In this document: positions 6,400 through 25,089 of the stretch, piece by piece
How the letters are laid out: each line of letters begins with the position of its first letter
Position numbering within the stretch: the stretch's first letter is position 1
Notes under the pieces: model-generated
Databases searched by the model: none
Seen by the model: the letters and a program-made list of their open reading frames with translations, nothing else
Told to the model about the DNA's origin: nothing
From: Parcubacteria group bacterium GW2011_GWA1_56_13
GTDB taxonomy: Bacteria; Patescibacteriota; Minisyncoccia; Phycocordibacterales; Phycocordibacteraceae
Assembly: GCA_001004905.1 (NCBI GenBank)
Contig: LCRY01000001.1
Span: 10,461 to 74,460 of the forward strand
DNA length: 64,000 nucleotides
Direction of reading: 5' to 3'
Made by a program: the position numbers and the translations under genes

Positions 6400-7500
6400 T
6401 TATTGATTCATTGGAGAAACAAGATAAAGGAGTGAGGTATCCCCGACCCCTTTTATGATAAGCGGTCGACCTATTCCTGCGGCAAGTAATGAAATGCTTT
6501 CGGTTGTTGTGAGCGAGAGCGCTGCCAAGAGGTATCGATGATTGAAGGAAAGGTCTAGAGGGCTTCCTGAGATATTCGCGCTCAAGGTTTCCGAGGATTC
6601 GCCGATATCGAAGTTTTTCGCAAAAAAGGAGAAGTTGTTCTTTTTTGGGTTGAAACTGATTTTTACTTTCTGGAACGCATCGGAGAATATTGTCGTTCTT
6701 TTAAGAGCCGTTTCGAAATCCTTTCTAAGCACGACTGCCTCTACGATCGATTCTTTTGGTATGATTTGCCGGTAATCGGGATAGACCGCATTTGTGAGAC
6801 GGGAGACGAACATTCCTTGAGAAGCAACAAAAGCGCATTGATGCTCGTCGAATGACATGATTATATCGTCGTCTGGCAGCGCTTGCGCTATTTCGAGAGC
6901 GTTCTTTGCGGGAATAAGGAATTTACCTTGCGTTCCCTTATTGGAAAGGGGAATTTTTTTCTCTGCAAGGCGGAATGAATCGGTGGCAACGGCTGTTAGC
7001 ACCCCCCCTTCTATAGACATATAAATGCTTGATAATTCGGGGCGAACCATAGAGGAGGACGCACATGGCGCAATGGAGGTAAAAAGGTTTTTTAAGAGAA
7101 CACCAGGAAGCACCACTCTATTTTTTGGATTTTCTGGGAATGGAATGGTTGGAAAATCATCATAAGGGACCGTTTTTATCAAACTTTTGCCCGTACCGCT
7201 CATAAGTGAGACAGTGTCGCCAGTATGCTCGATAGTGATATTTCCTTCCTGGGTGAGCGTTCCTGCTATTTGTTGTAGAACAGCTGCAGGGATCGCAACG
7301 ACCCCATCGCTTATATATTTTCCTTCTAATTTTAGATCGATACCTATTTCGAGATTTGTCGCGCGCATTTTTATACCATCATGTCCGGCAATAATCAGTA
7401 TTGAAGATAAAACAGGAAGTGTCGTATTCTTCCTTTCGGCAAACCTAGACACTTTATACACAGCGTCAGAGAATTCTTTTTTTTCTATTGAAATATTCAT
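6400..7500 (-). CDS. dnaN: DNA polymerase III beta sliding clamp
   Basis: 366 aa; MNISIEKKEFSDAVYKVSRF...LPVLSSILI beta-clamp N-terminus; immediately downstream of dnaA. Confidence 0.9.
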   Translation of the reverse strand: MNISIEKKEFSDAVYKVSRFAERKNTTLPVLSSILIIAGHDGIKMRATNLEIGIDLKLEGKYISDGVVAIPAAVLQQIAGTLTQEGNITIEHTGDTVSLMSGTGKSLIKTVPYDDFPTIPFPENPKNRVVLPGVLLKNLFTSIAPCASSSMVRPELSSIYMSIEGGVLTAVATDSFRLAEKKIPLSNKGTQGKFLIPAKNALEIAQALPDDDIIMSFDEHQCAFVASQGMFVSRLTNAVYPDYRQIIPKESIVEAVVLRKDFETALKRTTIFSDAFQKVKISFNPKKNNFSFFAKNFDIGESSETLSANISGSPLDLSFNHRYLLAALSLTTTESISLLAAGIGRPLIIKGVGDTSLLYLVSPMNQ

Positions 7501-7612
7501 ACAATTCTTATTAAGGGTGTTGGTATTGGGGATATGGTAAAAAAATCAGATTTTATTTGTGCAACATTCCTTTTACTGAGTGCGCAATCTGTTGGTAATG
7601 ATGAAAAATAAC
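7501..7612. promoter_or_regulatory. AT-rich dnaA-dnaN intergenic region, candidate oriC element
   Basis: 112 bp of very AT-rich sequence. Flanked by DnaA-box TTATCCACA at 7659-7667 and GTTATCCAC (reverse) at 7697-7705 just inside the dnaA 3' end. Confidence 0.35.
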
Positions 7613-8962
7613 TCATACAAGTAGGGTACGAATATTTTGTATTTCTTTTGCCAGGTCGTTATCCACAATCACTTCCCGTTTTATCTTCTCACAGGAGTGG
7701 ATAACTGTTGTGTGATCGCGCCCACCAAGTTTTGTTCCTATGGTCGGATACGAAATGCTAAAATCCTCCCGCAAAATATACATAATGACCTGTCTCGGAC
7801 GCACCACTTCTCTTCTGCGTGTTTTTTCATAAATACTTTCTTCGTCAATACCGTAAAATGCCGCCACCTTATCTACAACATTCTTAACCGAGATATTTTT
7901 CTGGGGCCGTGTGAATGAACGAAGGGATTGACGGACTTCGACGATATCTGGAGCGACTCCTTTCACCTGCGCATGGCACACAATACTATTCACCATACCC
8001 TCCAATTCGCGTATAGAGCCGCTCATAGTGGAAGCGACATACTCGACGACCTCATCAGAAAGTATGACGCCATGGGAAGCAGCTTTCTTCCTGGCAATTG
8101 CCATGCGCGATTCAGGATCCGGTTCCCCAATATCAACCGACATACCACTTGCCAAACGGCCTTTTAAACGCTCGGCGATATCGGGGATGGCTACCGGGGC
8201 CCGATCGGAGGAAAAAATGATCTGTTTATTTGTGTCATGAAGAGCATTGAACAGATGGAATAATTCCTCTTCACTCCGCTCCTTCTTCGAAAGAAATTGG
8301 ACGTCATCCATGATGAGAAGGTCATAATGACGGTATTTATCTTTGAACCGATTCGCAGTTCCCGCCTGAACGGCATCGGTGTAATCAATAACGAACTTTT
8401 CGGAGGTGAGGTAATACACCTTACGACCAGGGTATTGTTTTTTGTATTGATTGCCGATCGCCTGGATGAGATGGGTTTTCCCGCGCCCGGTATCTCCGTA
8501 AATAAAAAGAGGATTGTATGTTATACCAGGGCGCTCGAGTGCTGCTTGTGCGGCCGCATACGCGAGATTATTGAAAGAGCCGATAACAAACGTGTCGAAT
8601 GTATATCGTGGGTTCAAATTATCACTTTTATTGATATAGAATTCATCAAGGGGAAGTTCAAGTGCTCCCCGCACGTTCCTTACCTCCTTTAATGCCTTAC
8701 GCCGTTCGTCCTTTACGATGAGATACTCGATATTACGGAACTCATAGGACACATCACGGACTATTTTGAGAAGGAGTGTGTGGAACTTCTTGAGGTACCA
8801 GTCCTTGAAGAACTGACTCGGCACACCGATGAAGATGACACCATCCTCCACCTTCACGATAAAACTGTTGCGGAACCATGTATTGAAATTTGCCGGCGAT
8901 ATCGAGAGTTCCACCTGTGTGAGAATGTATTCCCAGAGCTCTCGAGGATTCCCTTTATCCAT
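7613..8962 (-). CDS. dnaA: Chromosomal replication initiator DnaA
   Basis: 449 aa; Walker A GDTGRGKTHLIQAIGN; AAA+ and C-terminal domain IV; classic dnaA-dnaN with divergent rpmH-rnpA-yidC. Confidence 0.95.
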   Translation of the reverse strand: MDKGNPRELWEYILTQVELSISPANFNTWFRNSFIVKVEDGVIFIGVPSQFFKDWYLKKFHTLLLKIVRDVSYEFRNIEYLIVKDERRKALKEVRNVRGALELPLDEFYINKSDNLNPRYTFDTFVIGSFNNLAYAAAQAALERPGITYNPLFIYGDTGRGKTHLIQAIGNQYKKQYPGRKVYYLTSEKFVIDYTDAVQAGTANRFKDKYRHYDLLIMDDVQFLSKKERSEEELFHLFNALHDTNKQIIFSSDRAPVAIPDIAERLKGRLASGMSVDIGEPDPESRMAIARKKAASHGVILSDEVVEYVASTMSGSIRELEGMVNSIVCHAQVKGVAPDIVEVRQSLRSFTRPQKNISVKNVVDKVAAFYGIDEESIYEKTRRREVVRPRQVIMYILREDFSISYPTIGTKLGGRDHTTVIHSCEKIKREVIVDNDLAKEIQNIRTLLV

Positions 8963-20481: not shown

Positions 20482-21180
20482 CTACTTTTTTGTAATCATT
20501 TGACCGTTTGAAGTGTACATACTCGCGGGAGTTGAAGAAGAAGAGATAACGAGGTCCGGCGGAGGAAAACCCGCATTAAGCACAGCAAGCCATGCGGCGG
20601 CGCGCGGCGGCAGGTCGTTTTGGATGAGGATGGAAGTCGAACCATAAGAAATGCGCAGCACGACCGCACCATCGGCCGTGTTCAGGGCGGAGGCGGTGTT
20701 TGGCGGCCAGAGCACATCGGCATATGCGCCGTCGCCAAGCGAAAAGCGCTGGCCGCGCTCGGCCGTGAAATGGCGTAGGCCCCGCTGCGCGCTTGCCGCC
20801 GCGGCAAGCGCGGCTTCCTGGCTTCGAGTTCCTTCCGCGCGCGGGCGCACGAGCGCCGAAACGCGATAGCGTTCCATAATGTGCGGCAATCCGCCGGACG
20901 AATCGGCGGAAACGGTCGTGAGCACGATGCTGTCAATGTTTCTGTGCCACATCGGCAGGGCCGAACCGAGTTCGCGTAATATTCCGGCGTCCTTCCCGGC
21001 GTTTATAAGCAGCGTTGTGCCGCTCGGGCTCCGCACCAACACCGCGTTATCCTTGTCTGTATCGAGCACGCGTACTTCGAGCACCGGCAACGCGAATGCG
21101 GTCCGATACACGAGGACATTTCCGGCGACGAAAGCGACAAGTACCACAACATAGAAACCCACAACTTCTACACGGGGCAT
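20482..21180 (-). CDS. ComEC C-terminal metallo-beta-lactamase-like domain protein, catalytically degenerate and encoded separately
   Basis: LEVRVLDTDKDNAVLVRSPSGTTLLINAG...IDSIVLTTVSADSSGG follows the ComEC MBL-domain pattern; the HxHxDH metal ligands are replaced; N-terminal TM. Confidence 0.55.
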   Translation of the reverse strand: MPRVEVVGFYVVVLVAFVAGNVLVYRTAFALPVLEVRVLDTDKDNAVLVRSPSGTTLLINAGKDAGILRELGSALPMWHRNIDSIVLTTVSADSSGGLPHIMERYRVSALVRPRAEGTRSQEAALAAAASAQRGLRHFTAERGQRFSLGDGAYADVLWPPNTASALNTADGAVVLRISYGSTSILIQNDLPPRAAAWLAVLNAGFPPPDLVISSSSTPASMYTSNGQMITKK

Positions 21181-21209
21181 ACATAAAGTATATGGTACAT
21201 TCTATCTCT

Positions 21210-21800
21210 ATGAACTACTCACCAAAGACATTCAAGCTCCCGAAACTCGAGGGAATTTCCGAGAAGCAGCTCAAAGTGCATCTTGCTTTGTACGAAGGAT
21301 ACGTGAAGCACGTAAATCTCATCATGGATACCATTGCCAAGCAGGGTAAGGCCGATGACGAGGGCGGGAAATATGCGACCGCGGAATTGCGCCGCCGTCT
21401 CGCGTTCGAGTTCGACGGCATGCGCATGCACGAGTACTACTTCGAACAATTCGAAGGCGAAAAAGGAGGGAGTTCGGATTCAGGACTCGGGAAGGCGGCA
21501 AAGGAAAAATACGGCAGCGGCGAGAAGTTTATTGAACACATCAAGGAAGTCGCCGGTACGCGCGGCATCGGCTGGGTCGTCGTCTATAAGGACGCGCGTG
21601 CGGATACTATCCACACCGTTTTCGTCACCGATCACGAGCTCGGCCAGCTCGCCGGGCTCCCTATCATCCTCGCGCTCGACCTGTGGGAGCACGCGTATAT
21701 GGTGGATTATGTTCCGGCCGAAAAGAAAAACTACATTGACGCTTCCCTTGCGAACGTCAATTGGAGCGTCGTCGAAAAGCGTTTCGACGAAGCCAAGTAA
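21210..21800 (+). CDS. Fe/Mn superoxide dismutase family protein
   Basis: C-terminal PIILALDLWEHAYMVDYVPAEKKNYIDASLANVNWSVVEKRF matches the SOD D.WEHAY...NW..V..R motif; N-terminal LPKLEG...YVKHVN region; overlaps the ComEC ORF 3' end convergently by about 70 nt. Confidence 0.7.
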   Translation: MNYSPKTFKLPKLEGISEKQLKVHLALYEGYVKHVNLIMDTIAKQGKADDEGGKYATAELRRRLAFEFDGMRMHEYYFEQFEGEKGGSSDSGLGKAAKEKYGSGEKFIEHIKEVAGTRGIGWVVVYKDARADTIHTVFVTDHELGQLAGLPIILALDLWEHAYMVDYVPAEKKNYIDASLANVNWSVVEKRFDEAK

Positions 21801-23263
21801 ATCAATCCGGCGTACGCAACGAGTGCAAGCCAGAACGGGAACGGCGGGAGTGAGAATGCCGCAAGCGGTAGCGCGGCGGACTCGCGCGCGATAAATAAGA
21901 GGTAAGCATTCGCAAGGTACGCGGGGAATGCGAGCACGATGCCAATGAGCGGGGCCATAGAACCGAACAGCATTCCCGCAAAGCCCGCGAGGGCGGAAGA
22001 CCCCATCGCGAGCGGGACAAACGGCATCACGAGCAGGTTTGCCGGAATGGAAACGAGCGAGAGATTGCCGGTGTCGTAGAGGAGAAGCGGCAGCACGGCG
22101 ATCTGCGCCGAAAGCGTGGTCGCCACCGCATTTTTCCAGAATGAGCTTTTCATAAACGACAAAAACGTCTCGACGATGGGAGCGAGCCAGATGAGTCCGG
22201 TAGTTGCCGCCACCGAAAGGCCGAAGCCGGGGTCAAAGACGAGGTAGAGAGGGTTCCAGAGGAGCATGAGGAACACAACGAGGAGGAGCGCCCGACCGGC
22301 CGCATAGGTGCGGCCGGTCGCGCGGGCGTAGAGCGCGATGAGCGCCATGAGCGCGGCGCGCAGCGCCGTCGCCGAGAACCCAGCGATACCCACGAACATA
22401 AGCAGGGCAAACGCTCCGGCCGCCGCGCCCCAACGCCTCGGGAGCGCAGTGAGCGCGAGCGCGGCTATCACCCACTCGGCAACGACCATGACGTTGTAGC
22501 CGGAGAGCACGATTATCTGCACGAGGCCGCTGCGGACGAAATCTTCCTTTACTTTCTCGCCCAATCCCGATTTGCCGCCGATGACGATGCCGCTGGCCAG
22601 GGATGCATGGGGCTCGGGTAATGTCGCGGCGATACCATCAAGGAACGCATGCTTTACGCGCGCAAGCGCGGCCGGAAGCGAGTACCACGGCGCTGGCGAT
22701 TCGACGCGCAGGTATGCGAAATTGAGCATAAAACGCACGCCGTCGCGCTCCAGATATTTGTCGTAGCGGAATATGCGGCCATTATCGTCGGCGAACGGTT
22801 CCGGGATGGCGAGCGTTCCCGACACGAATACTCGGTCGCCGACGGCGACGCTTGGATAGCGCGGTGCGACTGCCAGCATCGTCGTTGATTCATTCCCTTT
22901 TGAAACTCGTATTTCGACGCGCTGGTTCGCATCACGCACATCGGGGTCGCTCACCACGATGCCTTCATACGAAACTCGCTGCCCCACTTCGGCGACGAAG
23001 ACCGTCGGCAGAGGCGATTCGGAAAGCGCCATGCGCACCGCGCCGAGCGCGGCCACGAGGCAAAAAGCGATGGCGAGCGCATAAAATATATGCCGCTTGA
23101 AGTAGTAGAACGCGCCGAACACACCCGCCGCGAGCACAAAAAATACCGCCGGTTCCCATCCCGACGTGAGCGACCGTACGAACACCCCTCCCGCGAATCC
23201 TATGACAACGGCAATAAGTGCACCCACGTAAAGTATGGTAGCGCAACCTGGGTCTTGACACAT
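21731..23263 (-). CDS. comEC: DNA internalisation-related competence protein ComEC/Rec2 (DUF4131 plus Competence domain, no MBL domain)
   Basis: 510 aa polytopic; Competence-domain motifs LALTALPRRWGAAAGAFALLMFVGIAGFSATALRAALMALIALYA...LLWNPLYLV.DPGF. Confidence 0.8.
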   Translation of the reverse strand: MCQDPGCATILYVGALIAVVIGFAGGVFVRSLTSGWEPAVFFVLAAGVFGAFYYFKRHIFYALAIAFCLVAALGAVRMALSESPLPTVFVAEVGQRVSYEGIVVSDPDVRDANQRVEIRVSKGNESTTMLAVAPRYPSVAVGDRVFVSGTLAIPEPFADDNGRIFRYDKYLERDGVRFMLNFAYLRVESPAPWYSLPAALARVKHAFLDGIAATLPEPHASLASGIVIGGKSGLGEKVKEDFVRSGLVQIIVLSGYNVMVVAEWVIAALALTALPRRWGAAAGAFALLMFVGIAGFSATALRAALMALIALYARATGRTYAAGRALLLVVFLMLLWNPLYLVFDPGFGLSVAATTGLIWLAPIVETFLSFMKSSFWKNAVATTLSAQIAVLPLLLYDTGNLSLVSIPANLLVMPFVPLAMGSSALAGFAGMLFGSMAPLIGIVLAFPAYLANAYLLFIARESAALPLAAFSLPPFPFWLALVAYAGLIYLASSKRFSTTLQLTFAREASM

Positions 23264-23309
23264 TTCCCATATAAAGATAACATATCCGTTATGTTAGCCC
23301 CGGTACATT

Positions 23310-23681
23310 ATGGAATATAGCTTCTGGCAGACCCGACAAGGGGGAACGCCAGTTCTAGATGACTTACAAGCTGTAGCCCAAGCCGATGCTAACTCAGGAA
23401 AATCTTACTGGCTCCAGCTGAGCAAGGTCGAGAAATATACCTATCAGCAATTAATAAGGAAACTTCTCAAGAAGCTCAAAGGGAAGAATCCCTACAAGCT
23501 GTTTGAACTAAGATTTGCCCTGCCCCGGAAGATAGCAAGGACCTTTTGCGTCATCAGTCGTGATTCGAAATTATGGTTGTTACATCTGGTTATTAAGAAG
23601 AAAGATGGAACTAAGCGTTCTGATATAAAGATTGCTGAAGAAAGGGCAAAAATCCTAGAACAGACAATCCATTATCTGTAA
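23310..23681 (+). CDS. HigB/Gp49-family (RelE/ParE superfamily) toxin-like protein
   Basis: LFELRFALPRKIARTFCVISRDSKLWLLHLVIKKKDGTKRSDIKIAEERAKIL matches the Gp49/HigB core (ElR...yRi.yf....ivLLhgf.KK); low-GC islet. Confidence 0.6.
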   Translation: MEYSFWQTRQGGTPVLDDLQAVAQADANSGKSYWLQLSKVEKYTYQQLIRKLLKKLKGKNPYKLFELRFALPRKIARTFCVISRDSKLWLLHLVIKKKDGTKRSDIKIAEERAKILEQTIHYL

Positions 23682-23691
23682 ATGAAACAAT

Positions 23692-24138
23692 ATGAAGATA
23701 CAACACGCAAAATCGATACTGCTTGAAAATGATATGATTCGAAAATCATTTGGGAAAAATGATCTTGATAGCATCAAGATGAATGTCGGTCTGCAGATTC
23801 TTGAGCTGAGGTTAATCAAGAACCTTACTCAAAAGCAGCTTGCCAAAAAAATCGGTACTAAGCAGCCGAGTGTTGCGCGTGTTGAAAGAGGAGCTATGGC
23901 CCCTAGTTTAACGTTCCTATATAAAATAGCGGCTGCGGTTGATACGGAATTAATTCCACCTAAATTCGCAGTTGTTGAAAGGAACGAACAACTATATCAA
24001 ACGAATAATTTTCCTTCCTACCATTTCAGCAATGTGCAGAGTCAAGGAAAGCTGCAAAAAAATGCTGAAATTTCACATGTGCAACTTCCAAGTACTCGGG
24101 AGATATTCTCGTTTGATCATCAATTAGTTACACGGTAA
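23692..24138 (+). CDS. XRE-family HTH protein, putative HigA-like antitoxin
   Basis: HTH LRLIKNLTQKQLAKKIGTKQPSVARVERG; immediately downstream of the toxin-like gene; low GC. Confidence 0.6.
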   Translation: MKIQHAKSILLENDMIRKSFGKNDLDSIKMNVGLQILELRLIKNLTQKQLAKKIGTKQPSVARVERGAMAPSLTFLYKIAAAVDTELIPPKFAVVERNEQLYQTNNFPSYHFSNVQSQGKLQKNAEISHVQLPSTREIFSFDHQLVTR

Positions 24139-24149
24139 TTCTCAAAAAC

Positions 24150-24623
24150 ATGGAAAAAGAAAACATACTTAGATACATGGGCGGCATAGTTTGTGAATCT
24201 TCTGCAGTCGACCAACAGACCCAAAGTCTTTCTGCCTTCAAGATAATTGACCAAATTAATGTGAACATTAAATCAACCGACCCGACGGTAACATCAAAAT
24301 CACTACAAAAAATAACAATCCCTCTTTCGCTACAAGTTATTTCTCTATGGAAAAGAAATAAACAATCGGATCAAGGGAGGGACATCGAAGGAAAAATCGT
24401 TGTGGAGATTATTGATCCCCGAGGTGAAGTCCTCGCAAAACATCCTATTAATGTCCTACTGCCATTAAACAAAATTCGTTCCAGAACAATTCTTAATATA
24501 CAGGGAATGCCTGTATCAACTACTGGTGAGTATTGTGTGCAGATGAAAGAGGTTAACACAAACGGGAAAGAATCATCACCTCTGGCCAAGCTTTGTTTCG
24601 ATTTAATTCTAAACAAGGAGTGA
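24150..24623 (+). CDS. Hypothetical protein in the low-GC islet
   Basis: 157 aa; AT-rich codon usage like its neighbours; no recognisable motif. Confidence 0.4.
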   Translation: MEKENILRYMGGIVCESSAVDQQTQSLSAFKIIDQINVNIKSTDPTVTSKSLQKITIPLSLQVISLWKRNKQSDQGRDIEGKIVVEIIDPRGEVLAKHPINVLLPLNKIRSRTILNIQGMPVSTTGEYCVQMKEVNTNGKESSPLAKLCFDLILNKE

Positions 24624-24663
24624 CTATCACAATAGTAAAAACGCTAGAAATAATGTCAGGAAT

Positions 24664-25089
24664 CTAGAATCCAGAACCTCGGTCCATGGCCCCGTTCGCA
24701 AGAGCATCGGCGTCGGTGTTTTCTTCCCGCGGGACGTGAGTGAAGGAAACGGTACCAAAGGCAGAAGCGAGTTGGCCGAGGCGCGCCTGCTGTTCCTTCA
24801 AGACCGGATGTTTTACTTTATATTCTCCGCGCATCTGCTTTACGATAAGCTCGCTATCGAGCTTCACCTTTACCTCCGTCGTGTCGTGTTCCGAAAGCGG
24901 TACGAGCTTCAGGAGCTCCTCAAAGGCGAGAATGACCGCTTCGTATTCTGCGTAATTGTTCGTGCGCGTGCCGAGGAATTTGGAGACGCTCGCGACCGAA
25001 TTGCCAAGCTCGTCCCGTATCATCGCTCCCGCGCCCGCAGGCCCCGGGTTTCCCCGCGCTCCCCCGTCGGCATGGATGGTGAACTTCAT
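24664..25089 (-). CDS. rnhA: Ribonuclease HI
   Basis: 141 aa; HADGGARGNPGPAG...YAEYEA...THVPREENTDADALA DEDD motif pattern. Confidence 0.85.
   Translation of the reverse strand: MKFTIHADGGARGNPGPAGAGAMIRDELGNSVASVSKFLGTRTNNYAEYEAVILAFEELLKLVPLSEHDTTEVKVKLDSELIVKQMRGEYKVKHPVLKEQQARLGQLASAFGTVSFTHVPREENTDADALANGAMDRGSGF

What the first reader, a model, noticed from the sequence alone, without database searches (positions are those of the whole stretch)
23264..24660. Low-GC islet with a HigB(Gp49)/HigA(XRE)-like toxin-antitoxin pair and an unknown third gene
Seen directly: GC content falls sharply, with AT-rich codons throughout, between the comEC start (23263) and the rnhA stop (24664). Three co-directional ORFs lie there. 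The first matches the Gp49/HigB family (ELRF...RTFCVISRDSKLWLLHLVIKKKD). The second has an XRE-type HTH. The third is a 157-aa ORF with no recognisable motif. Established knowledge: a Gp49/HigB toxin with an HTH antitoxin is a common type II TA configuration on mobile DNA. Inference: this is a recent horizontal acquisition. The third gene could be cargo, for example a defence or abortive-infection factor, linked to the TA module.
Basis: partly seen in the sequence, partly recalled or inferred. Interest (0 to 1): 0.5.

Follow-up and report, generated by a model that had tools for sequence, protein, structure and literature searches.

The report
Three-gene toxin-antitoxin module with unknown partner
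A 1.4-kb AT-rich insert in a Kaiserbacteria (CPR) genome carries a HigB/HigA-type toxin-antitoxin pair plus a conserved third gene, an uncharacterised beta-sandwich protein, and the arrangement resembles known toxin-antitoxin-chaperone systems but uses a different kind of third protein.

Summary
GC is 0.39 in 23264-24660, against 0.56 for the whole window. This is the lowest value of any 1.4-kb stretch. Three co-directional genes sit exactly where rnhA and comEC abut or overlap in about 40 related genomes. Gene A is a Gp49/HigB-family toxin with its catalytic-type residues conserved. Gene B is an XRE-HTH HigA-like antitoxin. A palindromic operator overlaps the -10 of the promoter and is conserved between cassettes.

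The third gene is not loose cargo. It is a divergent DUF6941-like protein with a confident all-beta sandwich model. Relatives only 15-30% identical to it follow the same Gp49-HTH pair in unrelated genomic contexts.

Antitoxins followed by this gene carry a 38-58 aa aromatic-bearing C-terminal tail. Gp49-linked antitoxins without it have short, basic tails. This mirrors the toxin-antitoxin-chaperone (TAC) systems HigB1-HigA1-SecB, but the third protein is not SecB-like.

Most likely this is a TAC-like tripartite module in which C acts on the antitoxin tail. That step is inferred, not shown. "Recent" acquisition is not established. The site is a cargo hotspot, and the cassette and its flanking genes have different histories.

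The parts
23255..23283 (+). Sigma-70-like promoter: -35 TTGACA (23255-23260), 17-nt spacer, -10 TAACAT (23278-23283).
   Evidence: The consensus scan scores it 10 of 12. TTGAC and TATAACAT are invariant in four cassettes whose flanks are unrelated.
23278..23296 (.). Putative operator: palindrome TAACATA-N5-TATGTTA overlapping the -10.
   Evidence: Read directly from the sequence. The 22-nt block TATAACATATCCGTTATGTTAG is conserved in the window, L011, L007 and L009; L009 differs at two bases just 3' of the inner palindrome. Binding by B is inferred.
23310..23681 (+). Gene A: Gp49/HigB-family (RelE-fold) toxin, 123 aa.
   Evidence: Pfam PF05973, E 2.4e-10. The family profile matches S. pneumoniae HigB 6af3_A (E 1.3e-22) and M. 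tuberculosis HigB1 7nbu/7awk (E 1e-7). E66, R77 and K96 are invariant across 16 homologues; R68 and H92 are also present in the window protein.
23692..24138 (+). Gene B: XRE-HTH HigA-like antitoxin, 148 aa. N-terminal segment about residues 1-30, HTH residues 37-86 (23800-23949), C-terminal tail residues 93-148 (23968-24135).
   Evidence: HTH_3, E 1.3e-12. The best solved relative is the HigA antitoxin 6af3_B (E 9e-6, residues 17-86). Tail length and composition are associated with the presence of gene C.
23968..24135 (+). C-terminal extension of B (56 aa, 6 aromatic residues), a ChAD-like tail.
   Evidence: Tails are 38-58 aa with a mean of 5 aromatic residues when a DUF6941-like gene follows. 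They are at most 36 aa, basic, and almost free of aromatic residues when none follows. dN/dS of the tail is 0.15, window against L007.
24150..24623 (+). Gene C: DUF6941-like all-beta sandwich protein, 157 aa, the third component.
   Evidence: The profile search finds 787 representatives, and 104 of 149 relatives match PF22091. The AF2 model has pLDDT 93.5 and nine strands. Synteny with the HTH gene is conserved. dN/dS is 0.09. The start at 24150 is supported by the conserved R8-Y9 and by strand 1 of the model.
23264..24663 (.). The whole insert, lying between the comEC start and the rnhA stop.
   Evidence: Empty sites in relatives show the rnhA stop and comEC start overlapping or within a few tens of nt. 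About 20 closer relatives carry other cargo at this site.

Best explanation
This is a horizontally acquired, self-contained three-gene operon: a tripartite type II toxin-antitoxin module built like a toxin-antitoxin-chaperone (TAC) system.

- **A** is a Gp49/HigB-family, RelE-fold toxin. By homology it is a ribosome-dependent mRNA endonuclease.
- **B** is its HigA-type antitoxin. The N-terminal segment (about 30 aa) neutralises A. The XRE HTH dimer binds the palindrome TAACATA-N5-TATGTTA over the -10 and represses the operon. The 56-aa aromatic-bearing C-terminal tail is the handle for the third protein.
- **C** is a cytoplasmic DUF6941-like beta-sandwich protein with no enzyme-like features. 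It most likely binds that tail and so controls the stability, solubility or availability of the antitoxin. It would then play the role that the SecB-like chaperone plays for the ChAD tail in TAC systems, possibly also acting as the sensor that releases the toxin.

Shown: the family assignments, the operon anatomy, the conserved synteny, the association between tail and C, and the insertion.

Inferred: toxicity, neutralisation, operator binding, and above all the contact between C and the tail and its consequence.
For: **Toxin and antitoxin**
- Catalytic-equivalent residues are conserved in A (compared with PMC9098466).
- The gene order toxin-antitoxin-third gene matches higB-higA-Rv1957.
- Gene gaps are tight: 10 and 11 nt here, and from -7 to +31 nt between B and C in other cassettes.
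- The promoter and palindrome travel with the cassette.

**C as part of the module**
- C-family genes follow a Gp49-HTH pair at 15-30% identity to C in L094, L095, L101 and L103, and also in L098, where the first gene is only a borderline Gp49 match (23.4 bits, cutoff 23.9). The genomic contexts are unrelated.
- With C downstream, antitoxin tails are 38-58 aa, have a mean of 5 aromatic residues and are 31% hydrophobic. Without C the median is 15 aa, the tails are basic, and the mean is 0.18 aromatic residues. Mann-Whitney p is 1.7e-5 for length and 6e-5 for aromatic count.
- TAC ChAD tails are about 47 aa and are recognised through aromatic residues.
- A DUF2283 protein with a 44-aa tail precedes a C homologue, overlapping it by 4 nt.
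- C is under purifying selection (dN/dS 0.09), and so is the B tail (0.15).
- The C model is a confident beta-sandwich with only generic binding-domain neighbours.
Against: - No direct evidence of contact between C and the tail.
- C is not SecB-like, and no beta-sandwich of this family is known to act as a chaperone.
- The tail association rests on perhaps 3-4 independent lineages, so the p-values are overstated.
- The B-C pair persists where the toxin is broken (L007) or absent (L010). A pure helper of toxin neutralisation would not obviously be kept in those cases.
- The tails share no sequence motif.
- Two family members sit behind non-HTH genes.
Confidence: 0.5

Rival explanations
1. C is a second toxin or effector, and B is a double antitoxin. 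The N-terminus of B neutralises A and its C-terminal tail neutralises C, giving a toxin-antitoxin-toxin operon.
For: - B-C pairs persist intact without a working A. In L007 the toxin is truncated by a deletion of about 34 nt. In L010 there is no toxin gene and B lacks its N-terminal 27 aa.
- The DUF2283-C pair in WWE3 and the HTH-C pair in L010 have the canonical antitoxin-then-toxin order with overlapping or near-overlapping genes.
- The link between tail and C fits this reading equally well.
Against: - The C model is a plain 150-aa beta-sandwich. Its structural neighbours are binding domains, with no nuclease, transferase or pore-like match.
- The nearly invariant residues (D21, S28, W67, P90, R110, R112, G126, Y128) look largely structural.
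- No TA or defence model matches C.
- Only two toxin-less cases were seen.
Confidence: 0.2
2. C is a regulatory partner or sensor of the HTH protein rather than a chaperone. It would act as a co-repressor or ligand/phage-protein sensor that tunes B's operator binding or its release of A, and does not control B's folding or stability.
For: - The HTH-C linkage is conserved and the operator is conserved.
- B-C is kept without A.
- In E. coli HigBAC the third protein doubles as the phage sensor.
- Uncharacterised phage proteins share the fold (TM 0.66/0.76).
Against: - No DNA-binding or ligand-binding signature was found in C.
- It does not explain why the tails are aromatic and hydrophobic, as ChAD elements are.
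- It overlaps heavily with the best explanation and is hard to separate from it by sequence alone.
Confidence: 0.15
3. C is unrelated cargo that happens to sit beside a HigBA pair on the same islet.
For: The rnhA-comEC site collects miscellaneous genes in relatives: CYTH, ASCH, NUDIX, methyltransferase and others. C has no annotated function.
Against: - The same gene order recurs in at least 8 unrelated contexts and at 15-30% identity.
- Genes are separated by 4-31 nt or overlap.
- Antitoxin tail length tracks the presence of C.
Confidence: 0.05

Closest known systems
Toxin-antitoxin-chaperone (TAC) systems: M. tuberculosis HigB1-HigA1-SecB^TA (Rv1955-57) and E. coli HigBAC
   Same: The toxin is Gp49-like HigB, and the A-family profile matches HigB1 in the PDB. 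The antitoxin is an XRE-HTH protein with a C-terminal extension of about 50 aa containing aromatic residues. The third gene is about 150 aa, comes last in the same operon, and the gene order is identical.
   Different: The third protein is an all-beta sandwich of the DUF6941 kind. It has no SecB Pfam match and its model has no helices of four or more residues. Chaperone dependence is untested. The host is a CPR bacterium.
Streptococcus pneumoniae HigBA (PDB 6AF3/6AF4)
   Same: These are the closest solved relatives of both A (profile E 1.3e-22) and B (E 9e-6, covering the N-terminal segment and the HTH).
   Different: That system has two genes. Its HigA is 97 aa and lacks the long tail. There is no third gene.
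Pfam DUF6941 (PF22091)
   Same: Of 149 profile-detected relatives of C, 104 match it at E <= 0.01 (best 4.4e-10). The proteins are the same size and have a single domain.
   Different: The window protein scores 16.3 bits, below the 27-bit cutoff. The family has no known function and no paper in the searchable library mentions it.
Two-gene Gp49-HTH modules (e.g. V. cholerae HigBA2, phage-type gp49 pairs)
   Same: Same toxin family, same toxin-then-antitoxin order, and an HTH antitoxin with an N-terminal neutralising segment. Many such pairs turned up in the metagenome scan.
   Different: Their antitoxins end 0-36 aa after the HTH, with basic tails, and no DUF6941-like gene follows.

Membership tests
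HigBA-type (Gp49/PF05973) type II toxin-antitoxin | The toxin matches PF05973 above the curated threshold and resembles solved HigB toxins. | tested here: met
   40.8 bits against a cutoff of 23.9. The profile matches 6af3_A at E 1.3e-22 and HigB1 at E 1e-7.
HigBA-type (Gp49/PF05973) type II toxin-antitoxin | Catalytic-type residues are conserved (E66/R68/R77/K95 of HigB-TAC; E66/R68/R73/K92 of S. pneumoniae HigB). | tested here: met
   Window A has E66, R68, R77 and K96. E66, R77 and K96 are invariant across 16 homologues. The residue roles come from PMC9098466. The mapping is by alignment only.
HigBA-type (Gp49/PF05973) type II toxin-antitoxin | The toxin gene lies upstream of an XRE-HTH antitoxin gene in one operon. 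| tested here: met
   A and B are separated by 10 nt. B has HTH_3 and matches HigA 6af3_B. The toxin-then-antitoxin order for gp49 is given in PMC11980606.
HigBA-type (Gp49/PF05973) type II toxin-antitoxin | Autoregulation through a palindromic operator at the promoter. | tested here: inconclusive
   A conserved palindrome overlaps the -10. Binding was not tested.
HigBA-type (Gp49/PF05973) type II toxin-antitoxin | The toxin arrests growth and the antitoxin neutralises it. | not testable with these tools
   Requires expression assays.
TAC (toxin-antitoxin-chaperone) | A third gene sits in the same operon after a HigBA, MqsRA or HicAB pair. | tested here: met
   C starts 11 nt after B, and this arrangement is conserved in at least 8 contexts.
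TAC (toxin-antitoxin-chaperone) | The third protein is a SecB homologue. | tested here: not met
TAC (toxin-antitoxin-chaperone) | The antitoxin carries a C-terminal chaperone-addiction extension with aromatic residues. | tested here: inconclusive
   The tail is 56 aa with 6 aromatic residues, and such tails are associated with the presence of C. They share no sequence similarity to known ChAD elements or to each other.
TAC (toxin-antitoxin-chaperone) | The antitoxin needs the third protein in order to fold, survive or neutralise the toxin. | not testable with these tools
   Requires co-expression and binding assays or complex modelling.
Pfam DUF6941 (PF22091) | The whole-protein score reaches the gathering threshold. 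| tested here: not met
   16.3 bits against 27. L103 C scores 20.9 bits.
Pfam DUF6941 (PF22091) | Homology is detectable through intermediate sequences. | tested here: met
   The profile of C and its five close relatives finds 787 representatives. Of the 149 aligned sequences, 104 match PF22091 at E <= 0.01.

The most novel reading that the evidence does not exclude
DUF6941-like beta-sandwich proteins are a second class of dedicated antitoxin partners, unrelated to SecB. On this reading, "chaperone addiction" (an aggregation-prone aromatic tail on the antitoxin plus a cognate binding protein that may also act as the trigger sensor) evolved independently of the SecB-based form. These proteins are attached mainly to Gp49/HigBA modules, and occasionally to other antitoxin types, in CPR bacteria and other uncultivated lineages.
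Probability: 0.4. Interest if true: 0.75.

Novelty: new variant of a known kind. Interest (0 to 1): 0.6.

Why it matters
Tripartite TA systems with a dedicated chaperone are so far known only with SecB-like proteins. In those systems the chaperone is the phage-sensing element, and it can be swapped between toxin "warheads".

A structurally unrelated third component with the same genetic logic would have three consequences:
- It would show that antitoxin-tail control is a general, convergently evolved design.
- It would assign a first function to a domain family of unknown function with hundreds of sequence clusters.
- It would provide a compact module, testable in E. coli, from CPR bacteria, whose defence and stress biology is almost unexplored.

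The work also identifies the rnhA-comEC junction as a cargo hotspot in Kaiserbacteria.

Tried and rejected
- **C as a SecB-like chaperone (literal TAC).** Rejected. The AF2 model is all-beta and there is no SecB Pfam hit.
- **Phage or plasmid origin of C.** No tblastn hit for C, for P0157 or for 11 concatenated diverse relatives. No viral-contig relatives. No PHROG match.
- **BFVD structural matches.** They are uncharacterised phage proteins. I could not retrieve their genomic context.
- **Defence-system models.** There is no PADLOC hit for A or C. The RmrA, capH and control-protein hits for B are HTH-only.
- **Mobility signatures.** No flanking direct repeats beyond chance-level 10-15-mers, no tRNA gene, no integrase and no Rfam match.
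- **A sequence motif shared by the antitoxin tails.** None was found.
- **The 63-aa ORF upstream of DUF2283 in L091 as a DUF4258 toxin.** There is no Pfam support.
- **Literature.** Nothing was found on DUF6941/PF22091, on non-SecB TAC partners, or on DUF2283 with DUF4258.

Full report
**Observation**

The GC drop is real and extreme. GC is 0.392 over 23264-24660, against 0.557 for the 64-kb window. That gives z = -3.75 against all 1397-nt windows, and it is the single lowest such stretch. Third-position GC is 0.46, 0.36 and 0.35 in the three genes, against 0.68-0.77 in comEC, rnhA and recJ.

- A: 23310-23681, 123 aa.
- B: 23692-24138, 148 aa.
- C: 24150-24623, 157 aa.

All three are on the + strand. 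They lie between comEC (21731-23263, - strand) and rnhA (24664-25089, - strand).

**Source and insertion**

Identical cassettes occur in four assemblies, including GCA_003531405.1. The closest recJ relatives are Candidatus Kaiserbacteria and other Patescibacteria MAGs.

The order recJ-rnhA-comEC is conserved in 63 of the fetched loci.
- In about 40 of them rnhA and comEC abut, with a computed gap of -47 to +45 nt.
- In L013, L033 and L028 the rnhA stop and the comEC start overlap as ATGA.

The window's 1.4 kb therefore sits inside a formerly coupled gene junction, so it is an insertion.

About 20 of the closer relatives carry other lower-GC inserts of 0.4-3.5 kb at the same junction. Pfam confirms a ParE-family toxin (L015), HicA/HicB (L070), and CYTH, ASCH, tRNA-binding, methyltransferase, ResIII-helicase and NUDIX genes. 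The site is a cargo hotspot. Only L011 and L007 carry the same A-B-C cassette there.

Synonymous divergence disagrees between the cassette and its flanks, in both directions:

| Comparison | Cassette dS | Flank dS |
|---|---|---|
| Window vs L007 | 0.74-0.94 | 1.6 to saturated |
| Window vs L011 | 2.0-2.7 | 0.77-1.5 |

NG86 estimates are unreliable near saturation. Even so, the cassette has its own history. "Horizontal" is supported; "recent" is not demonstrated. No repeats, tRNA gene or recombinase mark the ends.

**Genes A and B**

A passes the Pfam Gp49 threshold. A profile of 16 homologues matches the solved S. pneumoniae HigB (E 1.3e-22) and M. tuberculosis HigB1, the TAC toxin (E 1e-7). 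E66, R77 and K96 are invariant, and R68 and H92 are also present in the window protein. These positions correspond by alignment to residues E66, R68, R77 and K95, which PMC9098466 lists as catalytic or essential for HigB-TAC.

B has an XRE HTH at residues 37-86. Its best solved relative is the S. pneumoniae HigA antitoxin, aligned over residues 17-86.

The promoter is TTGACA-17-TAACAT. A palindrome, TAACATA-N5-TATGTTA (23278-23296), overlaps its -10. The promoter hexamers and the inner palindrome are invariant in four cassettes whose surrounding DNA is unrelated. This fits an autoregulated unit that moves with its own control region.

**Gene C**

On its own, C has only a sub-threshold DUF6941 match and six close relatives. 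A profile search of 1.84 billion representatives finds 787 proteins at E <= 1e-3. The 150 best hits listed are nearly all 135-170 aa. Of the 149 sequences then aligned, 104 match PF22091.

With that alignment the AF2 model is confident (pLDDT 93.5, pTM 0.86). It has nine strands and no helices of four or more residues.
- Foldseek against the PDB gives weak RhoGDI/PDE6-delta resemblance.
- Foldseek against BFVD gives uncharacterised phage proteins of similar size, with TM 0.66/0.76.

No PADLOC, NCBIfam or PHROG model matches C. No paper in the searchable library mentions the family.

**C belongs to the module**

Context look-ups show Gp49-HTH-C in these places:
- the P0004 contig, between a protease gene and rarA;
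- L009;
- L094;
- L095-97;
- L101/102;
- L103;
- L098, where the first gene is a borderline Gp49 match.

These C proteins are only 15-30% identical to the window's.

The exceptions are informative.
- L007 has a toxin gene truncated by a deletion of about 34 nt, yet B and C are intact.
- L010 has B, lacking its N-terminal 27 aa, plus C and no toxin gene. The pair lies between a terminator and tuf.
- WWE3 loci have a DUF2283 protein with a 44-aa tail that overlaps C by 4 nt.
- L100 has an unknown 245-aa protein upstream of C.

C and the B tail are under purifying selection, with dN/dS of 0.09 and 0.15 for window against L007.

**The antitoxin tail**

A metagenome scan with B relatives gave a comparison set of Gp49-linked antitoxins.

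| Property of the tail after the HTH core | DUF6941-like gene follows (9 Gp49-linked cassettes, plus L010) | No such gene (18 loci for length; 11 with tails of 11 aa or more for composition) |
|---|---|---|
| Length | 38-58 aa | -5 to 36 aa, median 15 |
| Aromatic residues | 2-8, mean 5 | mean 0.18 |
| Hydrophobic fraction | 31% | 14.5% |
| Charge | neutral to acidic | basic |

Mann-Whitney p is 1.7e-5 for length and 6e-5 for aromatic count.

There is a caveat. The antitoxin cores with C mostly form one clade. L101 is nested among antitoxins without C (nearest is L139, at 69%) and L098 is an outlier. That leaves only about 3-4 independent associations.

**Comparison with what is known**

TAC systems have a HigB (Gp49-like) toxin and a HigA antitoxin. 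The antitoxin has an XRE HTH and a C-terminal ChAD of about 47 aa, recognised through aromatic residues. A SecB-like chaperone is the third gene. The chaperone stabilises the antitoxin, and in E. coli HigBAC it senses a phage protein.

The window's operon matches that anatomy gene for gene, except that the third protein is not SecB-like. That defining feature was tested and failed. I therefore file the window's operon as working like a TAC, not as a member of the TAC family.

**Mechanism and rivals**

The best-supported reading (confidence about 0.5) is that C binds the tail of B and so controls antitoxin availability.

The main rival (about 0.2) is that C is a second toxin held by that tail. 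This would explain why B-C pairs survive loss of A. A purely regulatory or sensor role (about 0.15) and a hitchhiker role (about 0.05) follow.

All of these rest on genomic association.

**Verdict**

- The TA assignment and the horizontal origin are supported.
- The "cargo" reading is replaced by an integral third component from an uncharacterised family.
- Novelty: a new variant of a known kind (tripartite TA).
- Interest: 0.6.

Noticed in passing
window 23227-23263 and 24623-24664; loci L011-L090: The rnhA-comEC junction is an insertion hotspot in Kaiserbacteria-like genomes. It is empty in about 40 genomes, often with an ATGA stop/start overlap. About 20 others hold different lower-GC cargo, including ParE-family and HicAB toxin-antitoxin pairs. 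No recombinase gene or repeats explain how genes get in.
   Followed up: partly
window 23225-23263 (- strand): The comEC ORF as listed starts at 23263. Relatives begin at the position equivalent to the GTG at about 23227 (MNILIAVVSGF... against ...VGALIAVVIGF). The first 12 codons may therefore not be translated, and the cassette's -35 would not overlap comEC coding sequence.
   Followed up: partly
window 6400-8962 (- strand): dnaN (6400-7500) and dnaA (7613-8962) form the second-lowest GC stretch of the window (0.41-0.47, against 0.56). This is unusual for core replication genes. rnpA and yidC follow at 9.2-10.3 kb, so the origin region is probably here.
   Followed up: no
window 21015-21800 (+ strand): An Fe/Mn superoxide dismutase-like ORF (Sod_Fe_C, E 1.2e-18) lies on the opposite strand. 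It sits between the comEC Competence-domain ORF (21731-23263) and a separate MBL-like ORF (20482-21180). comEC therefore appears split, with a local GC dip to about 0.49.
   Followed up: partly
L007 1601-1885: In a related cassette the Gp49 toxin gene is truncated to 94 aa by a deletion of about 34 nt that removes the H92/K96 region. The HTH gene and the DUF6941-like gene stay intact.
   Followed up: partly
L010 1-1192: A toxin-less version of the module: an HTH protein missing its N-terminal 27 aa, followed by the DUF6941-like gene. It is bounded by hairpin terminators and lies next to the 3' end of a tuf gene.
   Followed up: partly
L008 1-58: A public metagenome contig (ERZ27279942 k141_5384812) begins with Illumina adapter sequence (ACACTCTTTCCCTACACGACGCTCTTCCGATCT). 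That end of the contig is an assembly artefact.
   Followed up: no
BFVD hits to model md4de82127a26: Uncharacterised phage proteins of similar size share the fold of C better than any solved structure does. Examples are Anoxybacillus phage A403 A0A2P1JU14 (134 aa, TM 0.66/0.76) and an uncultured Caudovirales protein. Their gene neighbourhoods could not be examined.
   Followed up: partly
L139 2402-2785: This antitoxin is the closest relative of the C-linked L101 antitoxin (69% core identity). It has the longest tail among the antitoxins without C (36 aa) and is followed directly by a large unrelated ORF. It may be a recent loss of the third gene.
   Followed up: no
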